Assembly (NCBI GenBank): GCA_001412425.1
Contig: LKUH01000174.1
Span: 1-39,566 of the forward strand
Origin: Candidatus Cloacimonas sp. SDB
Lineage (GTDB): Bacteria > Cloacimonadota > Cloacimonadia > Cloacimonadales > TCS61
Length of the DNA stretch: 39,566 bases
Reading direction: 5' to 3'
Numbering within the stretch: position 1 is the stretch's first letter; each line of letters starts with the position of its first letter. The position numbers were made by a program, and so were the translations under genes. Positions 7 to 39,566 of the stretch are shown here, in pieces. Under the pieces are notes generated by a model. It searched no databases. It saw only the letters and a program-made list of their open reading frames with translations, and was not told the DNA's origin.

Positions 7-672
7 ATGAAAAAATTGAATTTACTCTTTCTCATATTAATTTCAGCCACAGTGCTTCTGGCACAGGAATCCATCGCAATTTCCCTGAAAGTAAATGGTG
101 ATGTGAATTTGACCAGGGCGGAAAAAATTAGCAGTCTGCAAACAGGATATGAGTTATTCAGTAAAGACCTGCTGGAAAGCAATGAGGACTCCTTTGCGGC
201 CCTAAAGTTCATTGATGGCAGCACTATTGTAAAGTTGTTTCCGCGCAGTATTTTGGAAATTTTTGCCGTGGCGGAAAAGGGGAAATTAAACAAGAGATCT
301 AAACTTGATCTGGGAGAATTATGGTCCAGAGTGGACCCCGGAAGCGGTGACTTTGAAATTGAAACTCCCACCACCGTAGTCTCGGTTAAGGGAACTCAAT
401 TTTTGCTGGAAGTTGATAAAGACGGAGCTACCACCCTTTATACTGTAACCGGAAAAGTGGAAATGAAAAATAAGACAGATGAACAGGTTGTACTTGTGAA
501 CGAAGGAGAAAAAGCATATTCTACCGGAACGGGGTTGATTGAAGTTTCACCTTACGAGCTGGAAGAGATCGAAGAAAATATTGAGGATATAATTGAAAAG
601 ACCCAGACACTGGAGATCAAACTGGAAAATGCCGAGGGTGAAGAGAAAACAATTTTCATAGAATTAGAATGA
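7..672 (+). CDS. Secreted FecR-domain protein (periplasmic FecR-like, no anti-sigma or TM part)
   Basis: The ATG is at 7. The N-terminus is a signal peptide (MKKLNLLFLILISATVLLAQ). A beta-rich core containing VSVKGTQFLLEV resembles FecR (PF04773-type) domains. The next gene starts 11 nt downstream, consistent with an operon. Confidence 0.7.
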   Translation: MKKLNLLFLILISATVLLAQESIAISLKVNGDVNLTRAEKISSLQTGYELFSKDLLESNEDSFAALKFIDGSTIVKLFPRSILEIFAVAEKGKLNKRSKLDLGELWSRVDPGSGDFEIETPTTVVSVKGTQFLLEVDKDGATTLYTVTGKVEMKNKTDEQVVLVNEGEKAYSTGTGLIEVSPYELEEIEENIEDIIEKTQTLEIKLENAEGEEKTIFIELE

Positions 673-682
673 GGGTAAAATA

Positions 683-3067
683 ATGAAAAAATTATTTATC
701 TTACTCTTTTTGTTCCAAATTTGCCTGATCTATTCGTTAACTTTTCAACATTTACCGCCAGCCTCTTTTTATGAAAATGAAAAAGCTGTTATTCAACTGG
801 AGATCAGAAGCGGATTCAATCACATAAAAAAAGTAGAATTCCTTTATAGGAGAACTGGAGAAATTAACTTTTCCGGCAAAGATATGGTGGCTGGAAGTGA
901 AACTGATCCATTTTATACCTGCACCCTTCAGGATCTGTCAGTTTATGGTAGTGGAATAGAATACTATTTTCTGATTAGAGATTTTGATGATAATGTTTTT
1001 ACTTATCCAGAGATCTCTCCACAGACCAATAGCTTCCGCTTCGGGATCATTTCCACAAAAAAAATTGAAACAGCCTTCATCCTGCTTTCACCTGATCAGA
1101 ATGTTCCGCCGGAATCTCCTGATTTCACCATCGCCATTTCTCTTTTCTCTCTGCAGAATGATCTGAAAGAGAATTCTCTGAAATTTATTTTTGATGGAAA
1201 AGACAGAACACATGTTGCCAGGATAACTAAAAATATGTTAATTTATCAGGTTCAGGAAGCTGCTCCCGGTAATCATACTTTCCAGGTTACCGCAGAACTG
1301 AAAAGCGGAGAAAAGATCAATTCCAGACAATGGTCACATCAGGTACCGGGAAGAATCAAAACTACCGAGTTTAATTATTCCGGTGATATAACTGCAGCCT
1401 CGAGGATCAGAAGAACAAATTCTGAGACTGAAGATACGAAAGATGAGAACCACAGTCTGTTGATGAATCTGAGGGGAAACTATAAAAAACTGGATATGCG
1501 TTCCAGGATTTATCTCTCTTCCCGGGAAGATAGCGATGATCAGGCAGTTAATCGGTACAACATCAGGCTGAAAATACCGCATCTGGAATTTATCGGAGGC
1601 GATCATTCTCCTTATTTTGGTATTTTTTCAGCTAATGGTAAGAATCTACGCGGGATTCATACCAATGTTCTGTTCCGCAATTTCCGTTTTTATTTTTCTT
1701 TCGGGAGTATTTATCGGAGCGTAAACGGCAAAGCGGATACCACTTATGCCGGTCAGAATTACACAACCTACTCAGGAAGTACATTTAAAAGAAATTCACT
1801 GGCTTTAAGAACTGAAGTAGGAACCAGAGAATTACTGCAGTGGGGGTTGAGTTTTTCGAAAACCAGGGATGAGGAAGCTTCCTTAAAAAAGAAATACTAT
1901 ATCACCCAAACAGACAGTATGCCCTCAATTACTCCCAAAGATAATATTGTTCTGGCATCGGACCTGAGACTGGCACTGAACAATCAAAGGCTGATTATGG
2001 GCCTGGAATGGGCTATGAGCATGTATAACGATAACATAATAGGAGGAGCAGTTGATAAGGATTCCTTGGAATCCGATCTGGGAGAAGAGCTGCCCTTCGA
2101 CCCTGAAAGCCTGGAACATATTTTTGTGATCAATAAAAATGTTTCACCCATTATTCCAAATCTTTCCAGTATGGCTTATAATCTTTACTTGAAATGGCTG
2201 CTGAAGAATAATCTTTTAAGTCTATCCTATTCGGCCATCGGTGCCAGTTTTAATTCTCTGGCTGCCAATTTTCTGACTAAAGATACCCGTATTCTAAGTA
2301 TTTACGATAATTTGAATTTGATGAGAAATAGACTGATCCTCAGTTTGGGGGTGAATCTTTATTCCGATAACGTCTATGATGAGAAAGAATATACGTTTAA
2401 TTCCTCCAACATTTTCACTCAGATAATGTATCGCCCTTTAGGACTGCCATATTTCAGCCTGATGTTTACCAGCAACAGTTCCGGCAATGATCAGGAAAAT
2501 GCAGCAGATGAAGAAGCTCTGCAGGAGCTTGATCTCAGCAGCAATACCATCAATTTTAATACCGGCTATTATGTGAATACCATCACTTTTGCTCCTACTT
2601 TATTTACTTTAGCTGTCAGTAATAACCTTTATAAAGATGAAGCTCAAGGTTCTTTCGAATACAGGAGAAACAGTTTCAGTCTTTCTGCCAGCAGTGATTT
2701 CTCGAAGCTTCCTGTGAAAACTCTGGTAACTTATACCTTTGCTGCGAAAAAGGATATAATAGAATCTTATGGAACTTCCAAAGCTGATACTGATAATTTT
2801 GAATCCAGCTATAATTCAATTTATTTAAGAGCTAATTTCTCTTTTCAGGAAGATAAATATAAACCTTATGCCGACCTGAGGCTTTCTGCCGAAAGCGGTG
2901 ATCAGAAGCAGAAATCCACCATGGCAAATATCGGCATAACAGCCAGCATTTCTAAGGTTTTGACCTTGAAGTCTTCCTTAGGAATGGCAAACTATGATAA
3001 TGAAGATCTGGAAAATGAAGCTTATTCCAGATTAAACTTCAGGATCAATCTTAAATACAAATTTTAA
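683..3067 (+). CDS. Putative outer-membrane beta-barrel protein (family not recognised)
   Basis: A GAGGG RBS precedes ATG 683, and the protein starts with a signal peptide. The 794-aa sequence has a long C-terminal half of alternating hydrophobic and polar strands. It ends in ...INLKYKF; a terminal Phe is the classic OMP/BAM signature. I saw no plug domain or TonB box. Confidence 0.55.
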   Translation: MKKLFILLFLFQICLIYSLTFQHLPPASFYENEKAVIQLEIRSGFNHIKKVEFLYRRTGEINFSGKDMVAGSETDPFYTCTLQDLSVYGSGIEYYFLIRDFDDNVFTYPEISPQTNSFRFGIISTKKIETAFILLSPDQNVPPESPDFTIAISLFSLQNDLKENSLKFIFDGKDRTHVARITKNMLIYQVQEAAPGNHTFQVTAELKSGEKINSRQWSHQVPGRIKTTEFNYSGDITAASRIRRTNSETEDTKDENHSLLMNLRGNYKKLDMRSRIYLSSREDSDDQAVNRYNIRLKIPHLEFIGGDHSPYFGIFSANGKNLRGIHTNVLFRNFRFYFSFGSIYRSVNGKADTTYAGQNYTTYSGSTFKRNSLALRTEVGTRELLQWGLSFSKTRDEEASLKKKYYITQTDSMPSITPKDNIVLASDLRLALNNQRLIMGLEWAMSMYNDNIIGGAVDKDSLESDLGEELPFDPESLEHIFVINKNVSPIIPNLSSMAYNLYLKWLLKNNLLSLSYSAIGASFNSLAANFLTKDTRILSIYDNLNLMRNRLILSLGVNLYSDNVYDEKEYTFNSSNIFTQIMYRPLGLPYFSLMFTSNSSGNDQENAADEEALQELDLSSNTINFNTGYYVNTITFAPTLFTLAVSNNLYKDEAQGSFEYRRNSFSLSASSDFSKLPVKTLVTYTFAAKKDIIESYGTSKADTDNFESSYNSIYLRANFSFQEDKYKPYADLRLSAESGDQKQKSTMANIGITASISKVLTLKSSLGMANYDNEDLENEAYSRLNFRINLKYKF

Positions 3068-3081
3068 GAAGAGGAGAACTG

Positions 3082-4989
3082 ATGAAATTTTTACGATTAG
3101 CTTTAATAGCAATACTGATAACTGTTGTCATGAAAGTGATCTTTATCACTGATTTCTGGCAGATTCTGGAATACAAAGTTCAGGATAATCATTTTCTGCT
3201 GCGCGGTCCTCAGGAAGTCTCGGATGAAATAATTATCATAGAGATCGGTGACGATACCTTTAGTTCTCTAAACGAACAGTGGCCCTTTCCCCGTGGCTAC
3301 TATGCCCATCTCATCGAAAATTTAGAAAGAGCTGGTGCGAAACAGATAATTTTTGATCTGGAATTTACTGAACCTTCAACTATAGAAGAGGACATGAAAC
3401 TTGCCAGGAAAGCTTCAGAATACAAAAACCTGATCTTTGCCGGTAAAATCATTAAAGAGTACAGAGATAATTATATCAAAGAACAGATTCTGCCCCCCAT
3501 AAATGAATTAATAGATAACGGCGCCCTCTGGGGAACAGTGAATATTTCACTGGAAAAGGACGGATTTGTCAGAAAATATGAATTATTTCAGCCAGTTAAG
3601 CAAGGAGAAGTCTACTCGATCGGAATATTGTCTCTGGCAACTCTGCACAGTGATGTAAACTGGCAGGAACAGATCAATAACGGCAGATCATTCTTCAAAG
3701 TCAGAAATAAATTCATTCCTAAAGATTCTTATAGAAGCGCCAGATTGAATTTCTACGGACCAGCTAACAGCTTTAAACATTACGATTTCGCTGATGTTCT
3801 GGACGATGCAGGCTTTGAACTTCCCAAAAAATACGATATCGACAGCTTTGAGATCTATCTGGAAAATGGAGATTTTAAAGATAAGATCGTACTGATTGGT
3901 GCAACTGCCGATGAATTTCATGACAATCATAACACACCTTTTTCGGGTCAGACCAGAAAGCTGATGCCAGGAGTGGAAGTGCATGCCAACTTCATTCAAA
4001 TGGTTCTGGATGAAAATTTTCTGACCAGTTTTTCCGGTTTTTATTTTTTCATCATCCTCCTGATTGCAGGAATAATTTTGCTGATGATGAATTTTTATAT
4101 AAGACCCTCAAGATCGGTTTTTGTTAATCTGCTTTTCTTTATCGGATGGTTCATTTTTGCCTACTTGCTGTTCAAAAATCAAAATACAGTGATTTCCAGC
4201 CTGGAAATTCCGGCTCTAATACTGGTGATGTTTGTGGTAGGGCTGGTTTTTCAGTATATAAAAACCGCAAAGGAAAGAAAATTCATAAAACAGGCTTTTA
4301 ACCAATACATGGCACCGGAGCTGGTAAATGAATTGATCAAGGATCATCGAAAACTGGAATATGGCGGAACCCAGAGAGAGATATCTGTGCTTTTCGCCGA
4401 TATCAGGGATTTTACCAATTACACCGAGAGTCATTCTCCCAAAGAGACTGTTACGATCCTGCAGGAATATTTAACTGCTATGGTTCAGGTGCTTCGAGAA
4501 AATAAAGGCACTATCGATAAATTTGTCGGCGATGCGATAATTGCCATATTCGGTGATCCGGTTGCCCTGGATAACCATGCTTACTGGGCTTGTAAAGCTG
4601 CTTTGGAAATGAGACAGAAATTTAACGAGCTGAGAGAAAAATGGGCTAAGGAGAAAAAAGATGTTTTTGAGATCGGGATAGGCGTTAACAGCGGATCTGC
4701 GACTGTGGGAAATCTGGGTTCCGAACAGATCTTTGATTATACCGCTATTGGAGATACTATGAATTCCGGCGCAAGGATCGAAGATCTGAATAAACAATAT
4801 GAAACCAGTAACAAAATCCTGATAAGCGAACCTACCTTTCTGCTGGCTCAGGAACGGTTGATCGCAAATTTTATTGATGAAGTTCTGCTCAGAGGAAAAG
4901 CTGATACAATCAAGATCTATGAACTTATCGGACTCAAATCGGAAATTGACACAAAAAAAAATAAAATGGAGAGAAAGGATGAAGGTTAA
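3082..4989 (+). CDS. CHASE2 sensor-domain class III adenylate/guanylate cyclase
   Basis: A GAGGAG RBS precedes the start. The layout is an N-terminal TM helix, a roughly 290-aa extracytoplasmic CHASE2-like region, three TM helices (FYFFIILLIAGIILLMMNF..., FVNLLFFIGWFIFAYLLF, PALILVMFVVGLVF), then a cyclase catalytic domain (ISVLFADIRDFTNYTE, KFVGDAIIAIFG, IGIGVNSGSATVGNLGS, DYTAIGDTMNSGARIE). Confidence 0.9.
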   Translation: MKFLRLALIAILITVVMKVIFITDFWQILEYKVQDNHFLLRGPQEVSDEIIIIEIGDDTFSSLNEQWPFPRGYYAHLIENLERAGAKQIIFDLEFTEPSTIEEDMKLARKASEYKNLIFAGKIIKEYRDNYIKEQILPPINELIDNGALWGTVNISLEKDGFVRKYELFQPVKQGEVYSIGILSLATLHSDVNWQEQINNGRSFFKVRNKFIPKDSYRSARLNFYGPANSFKHYDFADVLDDAGFELPKKYDIDSFEIYLENGDFKDKIVLIGATADEFHDNHNTPFSGQTRKLMPGVEVHANFIQMVLDENFLTSFSGFYFFIILLIAGIILLMMNFYIRPSRSVFVNLLFFIGWFIFAYLLFKNQNTVISSLEIPALILVMFVVGLVFQYIKTAKERKFIKQAFNQYMAPELVNELIKDHRKLEYGGTQREISVLFADIRDFTNYTESHSPKETVTILQEYLTAMVQVLRENKGTIDKFVGDAIIAIFGDPVALDNHAYWACKAALEMRQKFNELREKWAKEKKDVFEIGIGVNSGSATVGNLGSEQIFDYTAIGDTMNSGARIEDLNKQYETSNKILISEPTFLLAQERLIANFIDEVLLRGKADTIKIYELIGLKSEIDTKKNKMERKDEG

Positions 4990-5518
4990 AAGCACAATTA
5001 TGGATTCCAAGCAGATCGATCGATCACTTAAAAGAATGGCTTATGAGATTATCGAACACAACCGGGGACTTAAGGATGTGTGCCTTGTCGGCATTAAAAG
5101 CAGAGGTGTGCCCATGGCAGAACGACTGGAAAAATATATCGCAGAATTTGAAAATATCAAACTGCCGGTTGGTATTCTGGATATCTCGCTCTACCGGGAT
5201 GATCTCTCATTAATTGCCAACCAGCCTATCATGAACGATTCATATATAGATTTTGAAGTTAAAGAAAAAAAAATTATCCTAATGGATGATGTGCTTTATA
5301 CTGGCAGAACAGTTAGAGCAGCTATTGACGGTGTTCTTGCTTATGGCAGACCCAGAAATATTCAGCTTTGTGTGCTTATTGACAGAGGTCACCATGAAAT
5401 GCCGGTAAAACCTGACTTCGTCGGGAAAGAAGTTCCTACTTCTGCTGAAGAGATCATCAAAGTATCCTTCCTTGAAACAGATAAAGAAGACAATGTCAAG
5501 ATCATGGTTTTAGATTAA
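4979..5518 (+). CDS. pyrR: Bifunctional pyrimidine regulatory protein / uracil phosphoribosyltransferase PyrR
   Basis: Characteristic motifs include DSKQIDRSLKRMAYEIIE, LVGIKSRGVPMA and the PRPP loop ILMDDVLYTGRTVRAA. I chose ATG 4979, which follows GGAGAGAAAGG, over the upstream ORF-track start at 4874. That start overlaps the cyclase stop by 11 nt. Confidence 0.85.
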   Translation: MKVKSTIMDSKQIDRSLKRMAYEIIEHNRGLKDVCLVGIKSRGVPMAERLEKYIAEFENIKLPVGILDISLYRDDLSLIANQPIMNDSYIDFEVKEKKIILMDDVLYTGRTVRAAIDGVLAYGRPRNIQLCVLIDRGHHEMPVKPDFVGKEVPTSAEEIIKVSFLETDKEDNVKIMVLD

Positions 5519-15892: not shown

Positions 15893-16303
15893 ATGTGCAG
15901 CAGTTTAAGAATAATGATAATTGAAGATGAAGCTATTATAGCTTTAGGCTTGAAGAAATCCTTAACAGATCTGGGGCACCATGTTCAGTCCATGGTCGGT
16001 TCAGGTCAAGAAGCTCTGGAATTGATCAGTAAAGTTCAGCCTGATCTTATTTTTATCGATATCAAACTTCCCGGAGAATTAAATGGAATTGAAACAGCAC
16101 ATTTTATCAATGAAAATTACAAGATCCCGATTATAATCTGTACCGGCTGCAGCAGCAGAGAAGTATTGGATAATTGCAAAAAATGCAATTCCAGTGGTAT
16201 TCTGTTCAAACCATATAATGATAACCTGCTGGCTGATGAAATAAAATCAGCGGTTTCCAAATATAAGAATAATAATTTAAAAACAGAGACATATAAGAGG
16301 TGA
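15893..16303 (+). CDS. Stand-alone response-regulator receiver protein (CheY-like)
   Basis: The canonical receiver residues are all present: IMIIEDE (acidic pair), LIFIDIKLPG (phospho-acceptor Asp), IIICTG and LFKPY (Lys). There is no output domain. I chose the ATG at 15893 (ORF-track TTG at 15866). Confidence 0.85.
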   Translation: MCSSLRIMIIEDEAIIALGLKKSLTDLGHHVQSMVGSGQEALELISKVQPDLIFIDIKLPGELNGIETAHFINENYKIPIIICTGCSSREVLDNCKKCNSSGILFKPYNDNLLADEIKSAVSKYKNNNLKTETYKR

Positions 16304-16304
16304 A

Positions 16305-16658
16305 ATGAGGACTTTATTAGCTGTTTCAAATAAAAACCTGAAAGTTGCGATCCAAGCTGATCTTAATGGTAAATCTATCGAAGTAGATTCGGTTTCAACT
16401 GCTTTAGATGCCTATCACTGTTTAAATCGTCATGAGTATAATATAGCCATCATCGATCACGACCTTCCTGATCTGGATGGTCTTTTGATGGCCAACTGGC
16501 TAAAACAAGAAGATAAAGATATTAAAATCATTCTGATATCTTCAAAAAATTCCGCTGATTTAGCACAAAAGGCAGAATCGCTTAATGTAATCCACTTTAA
16601 CAAATGTGAATGCAAAGAAGGAATTTTCCGAAAGCTGGTAGAGAAAGACCTTATTTGA
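16305..16658 (+). CDS. Atypical stand-alone receiver-domain protein (degenerate acidic pocket)
   Basis: The ATG lies 1 nt after the upstream TGA (GGTGAAATG). The acceptor Asp context is kept (IAIIDHDLPDLDG), as are ILISS and FNK. The beta1 acidic pair is replaced by Ser-Asn (LLAVSNKN). Confidence 0.7.
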   Translation: MRTLLAVSNKNLKVAIQADLNGKSIEVDSVSTALDAYHCLNRHEYNIAIIDHDLPDLDGLLMANWLKQEDKDIKIILISSKNSADLAQKAESLNVIHFNKCECKEGIFRKLVEKDLI

Positions 16659-16661
16659 TTT

Positions 16662-16889
16662 ATGTTTTCCGGTTTTGTCTATCTGAAAGAACATAATATC
16701 TTGCTGATTACCCGTAAAAAGGAATCTGCTTTTCCCAATAATCCCACCAGAAACGATATCCTTGAACTGATAGAGAAAAACAGGCTTTTTAAACTTATTC
16801 TGGATTACAGGGATCCGGATTTTGCCTTGACTAAAAAGGATATTGTCGCTTTCTCCAAATATTTCCAACAATCAGGTGATGCTTTCTAA
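16662..16889 (+). CDS. Hypothetical 75-aa protein, operonic with the receiver genes
   Basis: The ATG lies 3 nt after the upstream stop and the gene is on the same strand. I recognise no motif, so support comes from position alone. Confidence 0.4.
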   Translation: MFSGFVYLKEHNILLITRKKESAFPNNPTRNDILELIEKNRLFKLILDYRDPDFALTKKDIVAFSKYFQQSGDAF

Positions 16890-37793: not shown

Positions 37794-38432
37794 ATGAAAT
37801 ACAAATTTGTTTACATCCTCATAATGGTAATATCCATCACGTCTGTTGCTGCAACTGAGATTATCTCGGCAGAACAGGATGCCAATAACAGAAAATATCT
37901 GATCAACCTGAATGACAATATTCTCACTACAATACAAATGTTGCAGGCTTTTAACTATCAGGGTCAGGAGATTTATCTGATTCAGAATGGAGATTATTAT
38001 AACTCCCTGCTGCTGGATTTCACCATGCAGTGCAGTAATCTGATAGAAAATATCAGGCAGGCGGAAGAGTTGAACCCGCTGGATAGAGATCTGCAGGTAC
38101 GGGCATTAATCGCCACCATTAAACCTGATGTTGAATTTGATGAGACTGAAATTAGTCCCAAACAGAAAGTTCAGAACAGAAATTTTCTAAAAAATGCTGA
38201 AATTCAACTACAGTACCGTCTTAAAAGTATTCTGGCAGCTATTATTGAAGAGGAAAAGGAGATCCTGAATAAAGGTGAGGTTACTCAGAAATATTTCCAG
38301 CTGCATACTCATCATTTTCTGTTTTCACTCCTGGAAGATTTTATTGCTCCTTCAGATCTGCTGAGTGCTTCAAATGAAAAATATCTGATCGCCATTGTTC
38401 AATCTATTGATGAAGCCTTACAGCAAAACTGA
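37794..38432 (+). CDS. Hypothetical exported or membrane-anchored helical protein
   Basis: An AAGGAA RBS precedes the start and the N-terminus is hydrophobic (FVYILIMVISITSVAA). I recognise no motif. The stop overlaps the next start as TGATG. Confidence 0.5.
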   Translation: MKYKFVYILIMVISITSVAATEIISAEQDANNRKYLINLNDNILTTIQMLQAFNYQGQEIYLIQNGDYYNSLLLDFTMQCSNLIENIRQAEELNPLDRDLQVRALIATIKPDVEFDETEISPKQKVQNRNFLKNAEIQLQYRLKSILAAIIEEEKEILNKGEVTQKYFQLHTHHFLFSLLEDFIAPSDLLSASNEKYLIAIVQSIDEALQQN

Positions 38433-39019
38433 TGCAGCAGATCATTGAAAAATCCTTCTCTGGTCTGGGTAGGGTGGAATTTCATCTTAACCGGAAAATT
38501 TCCCGGATCATTATCAGAATGAAACCCTTTAAAAATATATCTGTGTCGGTTCCCAGGGGAACTGGTATTATTGCAGCCGAAAAATTCCTGGTGCAGAAAA
38601 ATGACTGGATCCTGAAAAATATTTGCAGGATCAGAAGTTATGAGAAAAAAGTTGTGGCAGAACAGCAAAATGTAAAAGAAATAGATGAAGACCAGGCAAA
38701 ACTTCAACTGCTGAACAGAACTGCAGAACTGGCTGCTGAATTTAATTTCCAGTTTAACCGGATAACTGTCAGAAGGCAGAAAACCAGATGGGGAAGCTGC
38801 TCTTTGAAAAAAAATATCAATCTGAATATTAATCTCATCCATCTACCTTACGACTTAATTGACTACGTGATAATACATGAGCTGGTTCATACCACAATTC
38901 ACAATCACAGCAGCAGATTCTGGGAAGAATTGAGTAAATATGTTAAAGATCCTGAAAAAAAGAGCAGATCATTAAAAAAATATCAATATCTTTTATATAT
39001 GTCAAAAAATAAGGAATAA
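38432..39019 (+). CDS. YgjP-like metal-dependent hydrolase (DUF45 / M48-SprT-like)
   Basis: The sequences RWGSCS...INLN..L and DYVIIHELVHTTIHNHSSRFWEEL (an HExxH followed by NHS..FW) are the hallmark of the YgjP/DUF45 family. Confidence 0.8.
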   Translation: MQQIIEKSFSGLGRVEFHLNRKISRIIIRMKPFKNISVSVPRGTGIIAAEKFLVQKNDWILKNICRIRSYEKKVVAEQQNVKEIDEDQAKLQLLNRTAELAAEFNFQFNRITVRRQKTRWGSCSLKKNINLNINLIHLPYDLIDYVIIHELVHTTIHNHSSRFWEELSKYVKDPEKKSRSLKKYQYLLYMSKNKE

Positions 39020-39021
39020 AC

Positions 39022-39291
39022 ATGAAATATCTGATTTATGTCATCATTCTGGCCATCGGTGCCGGTCTGGGCTACCTTTATTACAAATTCATCGGCTGCC
39101 GGACAGGCGGTTGAGCTCTTACTTCAAACGTTTGGTTAAGCGTTTTCTGGGGAGCCCTTTTACTGTTTCTGCTACTAACACCACTGGCAGATAAATATCT
39201 GAAAAATTCTCAAACTGGTAATAGTATGAAAAATTATACTGAAACAACTGATGGAAACAAACTCGATCAATCCTCTGATCATTCGAATTGA
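39022..39291 (+). CDS. Candidate selenoprotein: small two-helix membrane protein with in-frame TGA (C-x4-U), 89 codons if read through
   Basis: The ATG follows AAGGAA and lies 2 nt after the ygjP-like stop. The ORF MKYLIYVIILAIGAGLGYLYYKFIGCRTGG meets TGA at 39112. The same frame then continues ALTSNVWLSVFWGALLLFLLLTPLA... and stays open to TGA 39289. From memory, the core resembles the GCxSGxCxITSNP motif of small DUF6132-type membrane proteins, with the TGA aligned to the second Cys. Confidence 0.45.
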
Positions 39292-39401: not shown

Positions 39402-39566
39402 ATGATCAAAGATATTATTAAGAAAAATAGAAGTTTTCGCAGATTTAAAGGTGAAAAAAAGATTTCGAACGATCTTTTACTGGAATTGATCGATTTTGCC
39501 CGTTACTGCCCTTCAGCTGCCAATAGACAGGTTATCAGATTTTTTCCAGTCAATGATAGCTCAACT
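39402..39566 (+). CDS. Nitroreductase family protein (5' fragment, runs off the window)
   Basis: A GGGAGAAAG RBS precedes the start. MIKDIIKKNRSFRRFKGEK...LLELIDFARYCPSAANRQ matches the N-terminal RRSxRxF and APSAxNxQ motifs of nitroreductases. Confidence 0.7.
   Translation, partial: MIKDIIKKNRSFRRFKGEKKISNDLLLELIDFARYCPSAANRQVIRFFPVNDSST

What the first reader, a model, noticed from the sequence alone, without database searches (positions are those of the whole stretch)
39022..39291. In-frame TGA in a tiny two-helix membrane protein: candidate selenocysteine (C-x4-U) gene missed by ORF calling
What the sequence shows:
- A 30-codon ORF (MKYLIYVIILAIGAGLGYLYYKFIGCRTGG) stops at TGA 39112-39114.
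- The same frame then stays open for 58 more codons, to TGA 39289.
- The continuation immediately encodes a second hydrophobic helix (ALTSNVWLSVFWGALLLFLLLTPLA).

The joined product reads ...FIGCRTGG-U-ALTSNVW.... From memory, this mirrors the G-C-x-S-G-x-C-x-I-T-S-N-P core of a family of roughly 60-aa bacterial membrane proteins that I recall being annotated DUF6132. The TGA falls exactly where the second Cys of the C-x4-C pair sits. Sec aligning with Cys in homologues is the standard hallmark of a true selenoprotein.

TGA is an ordinary stop elsewhere in the window (670-672, 16301-16303, 38430-38432), so a reassigned genetic code does not explain this.

The only SECIS candidate I can fold by eye spans 39118-39140: CUUA/UAAG, an internal loop, UCAA/UUGG, and an ACGU loop about 16 nt after the UGA. 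It is weak. A redox-active membrane-embedded C-x4-U micro-protein next to a nitroreductase gene would be an unusual selenoprotein class.
Basis: partly seen in the sequence, partly recalled or inferred. Interest (0 to 1): 0.78.

Follow-up and report, generated by a model that had tools for sequence, protein, structure and literature searches.

The report
Missed selenocysteine gene: tiny membrane protein
A stop codon inside a tiny two-helix membrane protein gene of an uncultured Cloacimonas bacterium is almost certainly read as selenocysteine, which would add a small membrane protein family (DUF6132) to the known bacterial selenoproteins and shows that gene callers cut or mistranslate it.

Summary

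- **Layout:** ORF 39022-39291 has an in-frame TGA at 39112-39114.
- **Family:** The read-through product is a DUF6132 (PF19628) protein. Homology runs ungapped across the TGA, which aligns with a Cys that is invariant in 120/120 family members.
- **Orthologues:** Four divergent Cloacimonas-lineage orthologues (neighbouring YgjP only 47-59% identical) keep the TGA at the same codon. Downstream they show many synonymous changes in frame 0 only and have different terminal stops. This excludes a pseudogene, a sequencing error, or a genuine 30-aa ORF.
- **Cys forms:** Close homologues with Cys at this position exist (P0243, P0240).
- **SECIS:** A two-tier hairpin (39115-39155; 8-bp upper stem, GGUU loop 19 nt after the UGA) meets all four published bacterial SECIS criteria. 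It shows compensatory pair changes and frozen silent sites, and is absent from the Cys forms.
- **Not shown:** Sec machinery in this genome (only phylum-level literature on a Cloacimonetes-type tRNA-Sec), and actual Se incorporation.
- **Novelty:** DUF6132 is absent from the 2022 and 2026 selenoprotein family lists I could read.
- **Function:** Family neighbours (glutaredoxin, rhodaneses, thioredoxin, HMA protein) suggest thiol, persulfide or metal chemistry.

The parts
39011..39015 (+). Shine-Dalgarno-like AAGGA, 6 nt upstream of the ATG. It lies inside the last codons of the upstream YgjP-like gene (stop TAA 39017-39019), so the two genes are probably co-transcribed and translationally coupled.
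   Evidence: Read directly from the sequence. The equivalent AAGGAA precedes the start in L168.
39022..39111 (+). Codons 1-30: first transmembrane helix and the first Cys of the pair (Cys26, TGC 39097-39099). This is the part that gene callers report as a 30-aa product.
   Evidence: It aligns to DUF6132 profile positions. Cys26 is invariant in 120/120 members.
39112..39114 (+). In-frame UGA, proposed selenocysteine codon (residue 31, C-x4-U).
   Evidence: It aligns with a Cys invariant in 120/120 DUF6132 proteins. TGA is conserved at the same codon in L168, L178/179/180 and L177. Cys at this position adds 5-7 bits to family scores.
39115..39288 (+). Codons 32-89: conserved A/S-L-T-S-N motif, second transmembrane helix (about 39118-39189), conserved DKY[LF] motif, then a variable hydrophilic tail.
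   Evidence: No change in the first 120 nt between the two haplotypes, while the true intergenic spacer is 69% identical with indels. There are 8-13 synonymous codon changes per orthologue pair. Frame 0 has no stops; the other frames do.
39289..39291 (+). True stop codon (TGA) of the 89-residue product.
   Evidence: Orthologues end at comparable positions with TAA, TAG and TAA. Sequence divergence and indels begin immediately after it.
39115..39155 (+). SECIS-like two-tier hairpin inside the coding sequence. Lower stem 39115-39120 / 39150-39155; upper 8-bp stem 39126-39133 / 39138-39145; apical loop GGUU 39134-39137. There are 11 nt from the UGA to the upper stem and 19 nt to the loop.
   Evidence: MFE is -13.0 kcal/mol and the same fold appears in L168 (-13.3) and L178 (-14.6). 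All four published bSECIS constraints are met. 87.5% of cells are paired versus at most 57% for slid partners, and pair 39126/39145 is A-U, U-A and C-G in three orthologues. Silent sites are frozen in the upper hairpin, 5/5 versus 9/32 elsewhere, p=0.005. No comparable hairpin exists in four Cys-form genes.
38432..39019 (+). Upstream neighbour: YgjP-like (M48/SprT-like) metal-dependent hydrolase. It is syntenic with the small gene in every Cloacimonas-lineage locus long enough to show the upstream gene (window and second haplotype, L168, L178-L180).
   Evidence: Pfam PF01863, E=1.3e-39. Synteny shown.
39402..39566 (+). Downstream neighbour: nitroreductase gene, running off the window end. It is not a conserved partner of the small gene.
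   Evidence: PF00881 on L001 10971-11543. It is absent from the orthologous loci L178-L180.

Best explanation
39022-39291 is one gene for an 89-residue, two-helix membrane protein of the DUF6132 family. In it, the second Cys of the family's invariant G-C-x4-C-x-[IL]-T-S motif is replaced by selenocysteine, encoded by UGA 39112-39114. During translation, the hairpin at 39115-39155 (8-bp upper stem, GGUU loop) would bind SelB carrying Sec-tRNA(Sec) and deliver it to the UGA, 11 nt upstream of the upper stem. The ribosome then continues into the second helix instead of terminating. The product carries a C-x4-U pair in the short loop joining the two helices. This pair could form a selenenylsulfide or bind a soft ligand. 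Based on the family's gene neighbourhoods (glutaredoxin, thioredoxin, rhodaneses, a persulfide-dioxygenase-like fusion, an HMA protein), I infer that it exchanges electrons, sulfane sulfur or a thiophilic metal with soluble partners at the membrane surface. Shown here: the gene structure, family membership, Sec/Cys alignment, conservation of the UGA and of downstream coding, and the SECIS-like structure. Inferred: actual Sec insertion, the presence of selABCD in this genome, and the biochemical role.
For: Family and Cys alignment:
- DUF6132 is the top Pfam hit for all four orthologues across the TGA, at 20.6-24.4 bits with Cys and 5-7 bits lower with X, W or G.
- tblastn against 7.3 Gb of plasmids returns only annotated DUF6132 genes.
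- An HMM built from 119 real members scores 58.3 bits.
- The TGA column is Cys in 120/120 members.

Translation past the TGA:
- Two haplotypes differ at 1 of 213 nt from the ATG to TGA+120. Flanking genes are 90-97% identical and the spacer is 69% identical with indels.
- Four orthologues whose YgjP neighbours are 47-59% identical all keep the TGA.
- There are 8-13 synonymous changes per pair downstream, and stops only in the other frames.

Sec/Cys pairs:
- P0243 (GCRSGSCPITSNPYMS) and P0240 are close Cys forms.

SECIS:
- The published constraints are met.
- There are compensatory changes and frozen silent sites.
- Cys forms lack the hairpin.
- The residues that distinguish the TGA forms from the family consensus (invariant P37 to V, N39 to L) lie exactly in the hairpin codons.

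Code and lineage:
- TGA is a normal stop in the window and in related contigs.
- A Cloacimonetes-type tRNA-Sec is described in the literature (PMC5330540).
- The window is from 'Candidatus Cloacimonas sp. SDB'.
Against: - No selA, selB, selC or selD was seen. Only about 54 kb of this genome was accessible, and no tRNA-Sec is in it.
- The window product is just below Pfam's gathering score (20.6 vs 23.2).
- No Rfam SECIS family matches.
- The hairpin's energy is not exceptional against shuffles for the window sequence (z = -1.3; z = -2.5 and -2.8 in L168 and L178).
- In L177 the hairpin is shortened and weaker (-6.4 kcal/mol, above the -7.5 threshold).
- Covariation rests on only four sequences; 21 of 500 shuffles reach the observed score.
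- The conserved hairpin codons also encode conserved residues, so RNA-level and protein-level constraint are only partly separable.
- There is no proteomic or 75Se evidence.
Confidence: 0.85

Rival explanations
1. The UGA is read through, so the full-length protein is made, but not as selenocysteine. Near-cognate tRNA(Trp) or tRNA(Cys) suppression, or a local context-dependent read-through, inserts a standard amino acid.
For: Sec machinery was not demonstrated in this genome. The L177 hairpin is weak. One public database entry already carries Trp at this position (P0242).
Against: The position is an invariant Cys in the family. Trp lowers family scores by 5-7 bits, and a TGT/TGC codon would give Cys directly. 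The hairpin meets all bSECIS constraints and covaries. TGA ends other genes in the same contigs, so the code is not reassigned. The W in P0242 is explained by the source's gene caller, because table 11 gives a stop there. The phylum is known to have tRNA-Sec.
Confidence: 0.08
2. The gene really ends at the TGA, giving a 30-residue single-helix micro-protein. The conserved downstream stretch is a non-coding regulatory or structural RNA.
For: This is how gene callers annotate it in 8 contigs. A terminator-like hairpin ends at the TGA. Short open frames on both sides of a TGA are common by chance.
Against: Downstream substitutions between orthologues are concentrated at synonymous sites of frame 0, with conservative replacements. 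There are no stops or indels for about 50 codons in four lineages, while the other frames have stops. DUF6132 homology continues ungapped through the second helix. Adding the downstream part raises the family score from 30 to 58 bits.
Confidence: 0.03
3. It is a decaying pseudogene: a DUF6132 gene hit by a TGT/TGC to TGA nonsense mutation.
For: A single-base change from a Cys codon would give TGA. The window product scores below the Pfam gathering cut-off.
Against: The same TGA is kept in four lineages separated by about 50% divergence in the neighbouring protein. The region after it is the best-conserved stretch of the locus between haplotypes and evolves under purifying selection. No frameshifts or additional stops are present.
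Confidence: 0.02
4. It is a split gene: two separate one-helix peptides, with the second translated from its own start.
For: Gene callers report a separate 28-aa ORF in the tail region of L178-L180.
Against: There is no ATG, GTG or TTG with a ribosome-binding site right after the TGA in the window. The 28-aa call starts at an internal Met after the second helix, in the same frame, and so misses the conserved LTSNVW... segment.
Confidence: 0.02

Closest known systems
DUF6132 (Pfam PF19628) small membrane proteins, Cys form, e.g. Riemerella anatipestifer WP_004920480.1, P0243, P0240
   Same: Same length class for the core (about 60 aa). Same two-helix hairpin (AF2 model of P0240: helix 3-27, loop, helix 41-63). 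Same G-Y-L-Y-Y-x-F-[IV]-G-C-x2-G-x-[C/U]-x-[IL]-T-S motif and same conserved Gly in helix 2.
   Different: The second Cys is encoded by TGA. The family-invariant Pro37, Asn39 and Gly48 are replaced (V, L, L) in the TGA forms, and the Pro37 and Asn39 replacements fall in the hairpin codons. There is a 25-30-residue hydrophilic C-terminal tail. The genomic partner is a YgjP-like hydrolase rather than the glutaredoxin, rhodanese, thioredoxin or HMA genes seen with the Cys forms.
Canonical bacterial selenoprotein genes with an in-ORF SECIS (E. coli fdhF type; bSECIS consensus model as summarised in PMC13188914)
   Same: UGA followed immediately by a stem-loop. The apical loop is 4 nt, starts with GG, and lies 19 nt from the UGA. 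The upper stem is 8 bp and the MFE is below -7.5 kcal/mol. Cys homologues exist. From my own knowledge of the E. coli fdhF element (not checked here), the 11-nt spacing to the minimal upper hairpin and a GGU-containing loop are also similar.
   Different: No sequence similarity to any Rfam family. SelB binding is untested. The L177 variant has a 6-bp upper stem and a GGUC loop.
Membrane-embedded predicted selenoproteins listed in the reviews (MerT-like mercuric transport protein, NqrE, YeeE/YedE, SO_0444 Cu/Zn efflux transporter; PMC9312934 Table 1, PMC13188914)
   Same: Sec near or within a membrane segment, paired with Cys or Ser, in proteins linked to thiophilic metals or sulfur/selenium traffic.
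   Different: No detectable homology. This protein is far smaller (two helices) and has a C-x4-U spacing that does not appear in the motif column of the 2022 list.
Thiol-oxidoreductase-like selenoproteins (Trx, Grx, Prx, DsbA-like; CxxU/UxxC)
   Same: A Cys/Sec pair that could cycle through a selenenylsulfide. Cys-form relatives are operon partners of glutaredoxin and thioredoxin.
   Different: No thioredoxin fold, four residues between Cys and Sec, and membrane-anchored.

Membership tests
DUF6132 (PF19628) | Significant match to the family profile covering both helices | tested here: met
   An HMM built from 119 Pfam-annotated members only gives the window product 58.3 bits with C and 52.5 with X, aligned ungapped over residues 2-56. 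DUF6132 is the top Pfam family, E=3.5e-4. tblastn against plasmids hits only annotated DUF6132 genes. Caveat: those members were retrieved with a profile that included the query sequences.
DUF6132 (PF19628) | Score at or above Pfam's curated gathering threshold (23.2 bits) | tested here: inconclusive
   With Cys at the TGA: window 20.6, L168 21.4 and L178 21.5 (all below); orthologue L177 24.4 (above); close Cys form P0243 36.8. This is a divergent sub-branch at the edge of the curated model.
DUF6132 (PF19628) | Invariant residues of the core motif G-C-x4-C-x-I-T-S-x-P-x-N-S...G | tested here: inconclusive
   Shared: G13, G17, Y20, G25, C26, T34, S35, S40, G44, with U at the C31 column. Not shared: P37 (120/120 in the family) is V, N39 (117/120) is L, and G48 (120/120) is L. 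The P37 and N39 replacements are common to all four TGA forms; position 48 is L in three and F in L177. The P37 and N39 replacements fall in the SECIS hairpin codons.
DUF6132 (PF19628) | Two-helix hairpin architecture of about 60-70 residues | tested here: met
   There are two hydrophobic segments on either side of the motif. The AF2 model of the closest Cys form has helix 3-27, a loop containing C-x4-C, and helix 41-63, with pLDDT 72.9. The window protein has an extra hydrophilic tail.
Bacterial selenoprotein gene (Sec decoded at UGA) | In-frame UGA aligned with Cys in homologues (Sec/Cys pair) | tested here: met
   Cys in 120/120 aligned members. Close Cys forms are P0243 and P0240.
Bacterial selenoprotein gene (Sec decoded at UGA) | UGA and the downstream reading frame conserved in orthologues under purifying selection | tested here: met
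   Four orthologues plus a second haplotype.
Bacterial selenoprotein gene (Sec decoded at UGA) | bSECIS: apical loop of 3-9 nt with G in its first two positions, 4-16-bp upper stem, 16-37 nt from the UGA, MFE at or below -7.5 kcal/mol (PMC13188914) | tested here: met
   Window: GGUU loop, 8-bp stem, 19 nt spacing, -13.0 kcal/mol. L168 gives -13.3 and L178 gives -14.6. L177 meets everything except energy (-6.4). Compensatory pairs are shown. The hairpin is absent from Cys forms.
Bacterial selenoprotein gene (Sec decoded at UGA) | selA, selB, selD and tRNA-Sec present in the same genome | not testable with these tools
   Only about 54 kb of the MAG was reachable, and it holds no tRNA-Sec. Phylum-level support only: a 'Cloacimonetes type' tRNA-Sec is described in PMC5330540.
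Bacterial selenoprotein gene (Sec decoded at UGA) | Selenium actually incorporated at the UGA position | not testable with these tools
   This requires 75Se labelling or mass spectrometry.
Reassigned genetic code (table 4 or 25, TGA = Trp or Gly) | TGA absent as a stop and frequent inside conserved genes | tested here: not met
   Long ORFs are intact under table 11, and some end in TGA in the window, L001 and L168. Trp or Gly at the site lowers family scores.

The most novel reading that the evidence does not exclude
DUF6132 is a previously unreported bacterial selenoprotein family, and the first concrete selenoprotein gene described for Cloacimonadota. It would be a roughly 85-residue, two-helix membrane micro-protein whose C-x4-U pair in the inter-helix loop acts as a membrane-anchored selenenylsulfide, persulfide or soft-metal relay. 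Its SECIS has reshaped otherwise invariant family residues (Pro37 to Val, Asn39 to Leu). Public databases systematically truncate it to 30 aa, miss it, or mistranslate it with Trp.
Probability: 0.65. Interest if true: 0.6.

Novelty: new member of a known kind. Interest (0 to 1): 0.55.

Why it matters
- **New family:** It would add a new family, and an unusual type (a tiny membrane hairpin with C-x4-U spacing), to the 110 or so known prokaryotic selenoprotein families. It would also give the poorly understood, uncultured Cloacimonadota a concrete Sec-dependent gene.
- **Functional handle on a DUF:** A Cys that can be replaced by Sec is nearly always catalytic or redox-active or ligand-binding. 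Together with the glutaredoxin, thioredoxin, rhodanese and HMA neighbourhoods, this points experiments towards thiol, persulfide or metal chemistry at the membrane.
- **Annotation failure:** The same gene is truncated to 30 aa in eight contigs, uncalled in one, split into two ORFs in three of those eight, and translated with Trp in one.
- **SECIS imprint:** The SECIS overlapping the coding sequence appears to have forced replacement of family-invariant residues. This is a clean small example of RNA-structure constraint shaping protein sequence.

Tried and rejected
- **Word-index homologue search** with the Cys-substituted product found nothing.
It worked only with the exact 30-aa product.
They returned only 27-57% identical homologues, none with a DUF6132-like motif nearby.
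- **Rfam:** no SECIS or other family at gathering or at E up to 10.
- **Whole 76-nt segment fold** is not better than shuffles (z = -0.12). Only the defined hairpin and its conservation are informative.
- **YgjP relatives at 45-49% identity** (L169, L170-172, L173) have different synteny and no small ORF. L174 ends before the site.
- **P0240's locus** is not syntenic.
- **Second in-frame-TGA candidate** at 16281-16889 looks like a receiver-domain gene ending at a normal TGA.
- **Papers:** the Cloacimonas genome paper and Mukai et al. 2016 are not held. No supplementary tables are held for the selenoprotein database papers.
- **Plasmid collection** holds DUF6132 only in Riemerella.

Full report
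**1. Observation**

The sequence is as described. ATG 39022 opens 30 codons (MKYLIYVIILAIGAGLGYLYYKFIGCRTGG). TGA follows at 39112-39114, and then 58 further open codons in the same frame run to TGA 39289-39291.

The pattern alone is not remarkable. The window has 53 places where a TGA has at least 25 open codons on both sides, mostly in off-frames of real genes. This one, however, lies in otherwise unassigned space, 2 nt after the stop of the upstream gene and behind an AAGGA ribosome-binding site.

TGA is a genuine but rare stop here. Among long ORFs there are 18 TAA, 5 TAG and 3 TGA, including the ATGA-coupled 38430-38432. The same TGA occurs in five independent assemblies, so it is not a sequencing error.

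**2. Source**

The upstream protein is 100% identical to an NCBI entry from the MAG 'Candidatus Cloacimonas sp. SDB'. The window has 39.6% G+C.

**3. Family**

With Cys at the TGA, Pfam's top family is DUF6132/PF19628. Residues 9-50 align to profile positions 11-52, at 20.6 bits and E=3.5e-4, against a gathering cut-off of 23.2.

| Residue placed at the TGA | DUF6132 score (bits) |
|---|---|
| Cys | 20.6 |
| X | 15.4 |
| Gly | 14.7 |
| Trp | 13.9 |
| codon deleted | 10.5 |

Neither half alone hits the family. So the homology spans the TGA, and the profile strongly expects Cys there.

A tblastn of the core against 7.3 Gb of plasmids returned only genes annotated 'DUF6132 family protein' in Riemerella (48.8% identity over residues 2-44).

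Seeding with that real member gave 655 hits. All but one of the 120 listed carry PF19628; the exception is P0240. An HMM built only from 119 real members scores as follows:

| Query | Bits |
|---|---|
| Window product, Cys at TGA | 58.3 |
| Window product, X at TGA | 52.5 |
| First 30 aa alone | 30.4 |

In the joint alignment the TGA column is Cys in 120/120 members, as is Cys26. G25, T34, S35, S40 and G44 are shared. An AF2 model of the closest Cys form is a helical hairpin with the C-x4-C in the connecting loop, at pLDDT 73.

**4. Is the downstream part translated?**

*Two haplotypes of the same species* (window = L083/L086; L084/085/087) compare as follows:

| Segment | Identity between haplotypes |
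|---|---|
| Flanking genes | 90-97% |
| True intergenic spacer after 39291 | 69%, with indels |
| ATG to 120 nt past the TGA | 1 synonymous change in 213 nt |

*More divergent relatives* settle the matter:

- L168: YgjP neighbour 59% identical.
- L178/179/180: YgjP neighbour 47% identical, same synteny.
- L177: a 500-nt seawater contig.

All carry TGA at the same codon, followed by [AS]-L-T-S-N-V-W-x-S-V...L-L-S-P-x-x-D-K-Y-[LF]. For codons 32-60, pairwise comparisons give 8-13 synonymous and 5-12 mostly conservative replacements. Frame 0 has no stops, while frames +1 and +2 do. The terminal stops differ: TGA, TAA, TAG, TAA.

This is the signature of a translated frame under purifying selection. 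It excludes a pseudogene, a genuine 30-aa ORF followed by non-coding sequence, and a split gene.

**5. Sec/Cys pairs**

The exhaustive search with the 30-aa product found only three significant proteins:

- **P0241:** another product cut at exactly the same residue.
- **P0242:** full length with W at the site. Its DNA has TGA and gives a stop under table 11, so the W is a gene-caller artefact.
- **P0243:** a Cys form (GCRSGSCPITSNPYMS) that passes Pfam at 36.8 bits.

With Cys, the L177 product passes Pfam's threshold (24.4 bits). With the deposited Trp it drops to 17.7.

**6. SECIS**

The predicted and conserved fold has three parts:

- Lower stem 39115-39120 / 39150-39155.
- Upper 8-bp stem 39126-39133 / 39138-45.
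- GGUU loop 39134-39137.

Its MFE is -13.0 kcal/mol. L168 (-13.3) and L178 (-14.6) fold identically. L177 keeps a 6-bp stem with a GGUC loop but is weaker, at -6.4.

The published bacterial model requires a 3-9-nt loop with G in its first two positions, a 4-16-bp upper stem, 16-37 nt between the UGA and the loop, and MFE at or below -7.5 kcal/mol (PMC13188914). The window, L168 and L178 meet all four constraints.

Further support:

- Across the four sequences, 87.5% of cells pair, against at most 57% when partners are slid.
- Pair 39126/39145 is A-U, U-A and C-G in three orthologues, and another pair switches U-A to A-U.
- Silent sites in the upper hairpin are frozen: 5/5 identical codons against 9/32 elsewhere, Fisher p=0.005.
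- Four Cys-form genes have no common hairpin at this position.
- The residues that set the TGA forms apart from the family (invariant Pro37 to Val, Asn39 to Leu) are encoded by the hairpin itself.

Limits: there are only four sequences; 21 of 500 shuffles reach the observed covariation score; Rfam has no match; and z-scores against shuffles are modest.

**7. What is not shown**

No sel genes or tRNA-Sec are in the roughly 54 kb I could reach, and I had spent the genome scan earlier. The only support is at phylum level: a 'Cloacimonetes type' tRNA-Sec is described in PMC5330540, citing Mukai et al. 2016. Actual selenium incorporation needs experiments.

**8. Function (inference)**

In the Cloacimonas lineage the conserved partner is the YgjP-like hydrolase. 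The nitroreductase is not conserved. Cys-form relatives have these neighbours:

- Overlapping a glutaredoxin gene.
- Inside a cluster with YgaP-like TM, TauE, TPMT, a metallo-beta-lactamase-rhodanese fusion, two rhodaneses and a thioredoxin.
- 3 nt after an HMA-domain gene.

I therefore favour a membrane-anchored dithiol or selenenylsulfide centre that handles electrons, sulfane sulfur (or selenium), or a thiophilic metal. This is based on three contexts only.

**9. Novelty**

PF19628/DUF6132, a C-x4-U motif, and any small two-helix membrane protein are all absent from these sources:

- The 87-family list of 2022 (PMC9312934).
- The main text of the 2026 review of more than 110 families.
- The deep-Sep paper.
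- The BSepDB paper.

'DUF6132' occurs in no relevant paper in the library, and NCBIfam has no model for the family. A few unnamed 'hypothetical protein' families, and database contents I could not read, cannot be excluded.

The mechanism is canonical, so I rate this a new member of a known kind. It is of solid interest to selenoproteome and annotation specialists, but it is not a conceptual surprise.

Noticed in passing
L177 95-349 (P0242); L178 2958-3206; L168 3582-3842: Public gene calls handle this gene in four different wrong ways. It is truncated to 30 aa in eight contigs. In three of those (L178-L180) an extra 28-aa ORF is called from an internal Met of the tail. It is not called at all in L168. 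In the ENA seawater contig L177 it is translated with Trp at the TGA.
   Followed up: yes
window 39092-39114: A 9-bp terminator-like hairpin (UCGGCUGCC-GGACA-GGCGGUUGA) ends exactly on the UGA, so the Sec codon sits in the 3' arm of an upstream stem. By eye it pairs less well in L168. I do not know whether it affects termination or Sec insertion.
   Followed up: partly
window 16281-16889 (TGA at 16656): A receiver-domain-like ORF of about 125 codons ends at a TGA, followed by 76 open codons in the same frame in otherwise unassigned space. The downstream translation does not look like a continuation, so this is probably an ordinary stop plus a second small ORF.
   Followed up: partly
L183-L188, about 500-5350 (DUF6132 at 4001-4228 in L183): There is a conserved freshwater-metagenome operon: Crp-type regulator, YgaP-like TM protein, TauE, TPMT-type methyltransferase, metallo-beta-lactamase-rhodanese fusion, DUF6132, two rhodaneses, an 81-aa protein and a thioredoxin. 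It looks like a sulfur or persulfide (possibly selenium or tellurium) handling module with DUF6132 as a component.
   Followed up: partly
L181 3768-4189 and L175 2696-3171: Cys-form DUF6132 genes are translationally coupled to small soluble redox or metal proteins. In L181/L182 the gene overlaps a glutaredoxin gene by 4 nt (ATGA). In Riemerella plasmids it lies 3 nt after an HMA-domain (KCGGC) gene, next to a TonB-dependent receptor.
   Followed up: partly
window 39402-39566 vs L178 3051-3340: The nitroreductase gene that follows the small gene in the window and in the second haplotype (and an uncharacterised partial gene in L168) is missing from the orthologous locus L178-L180. There the FlgD_ig/Por_Secre_tail protein follows directly. 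So the nitroreductase is a lineage-specific insertion or loss, not a functional partner.
   Followed up: partly
window 38432-39019 vs L084 2411-2998: Between the two haplotypes the YgjP-like gene is the fastest-evolving gene of the locus: 90% nucleotide identity, with 28 nonsynonymous against 18 synonymous codon changes. The adjacent small gene is nearly invariant.
   Followed up: no
Closer relatives known from other tools (L084-L087, L168, L178) were not returned.
   Followed up: no
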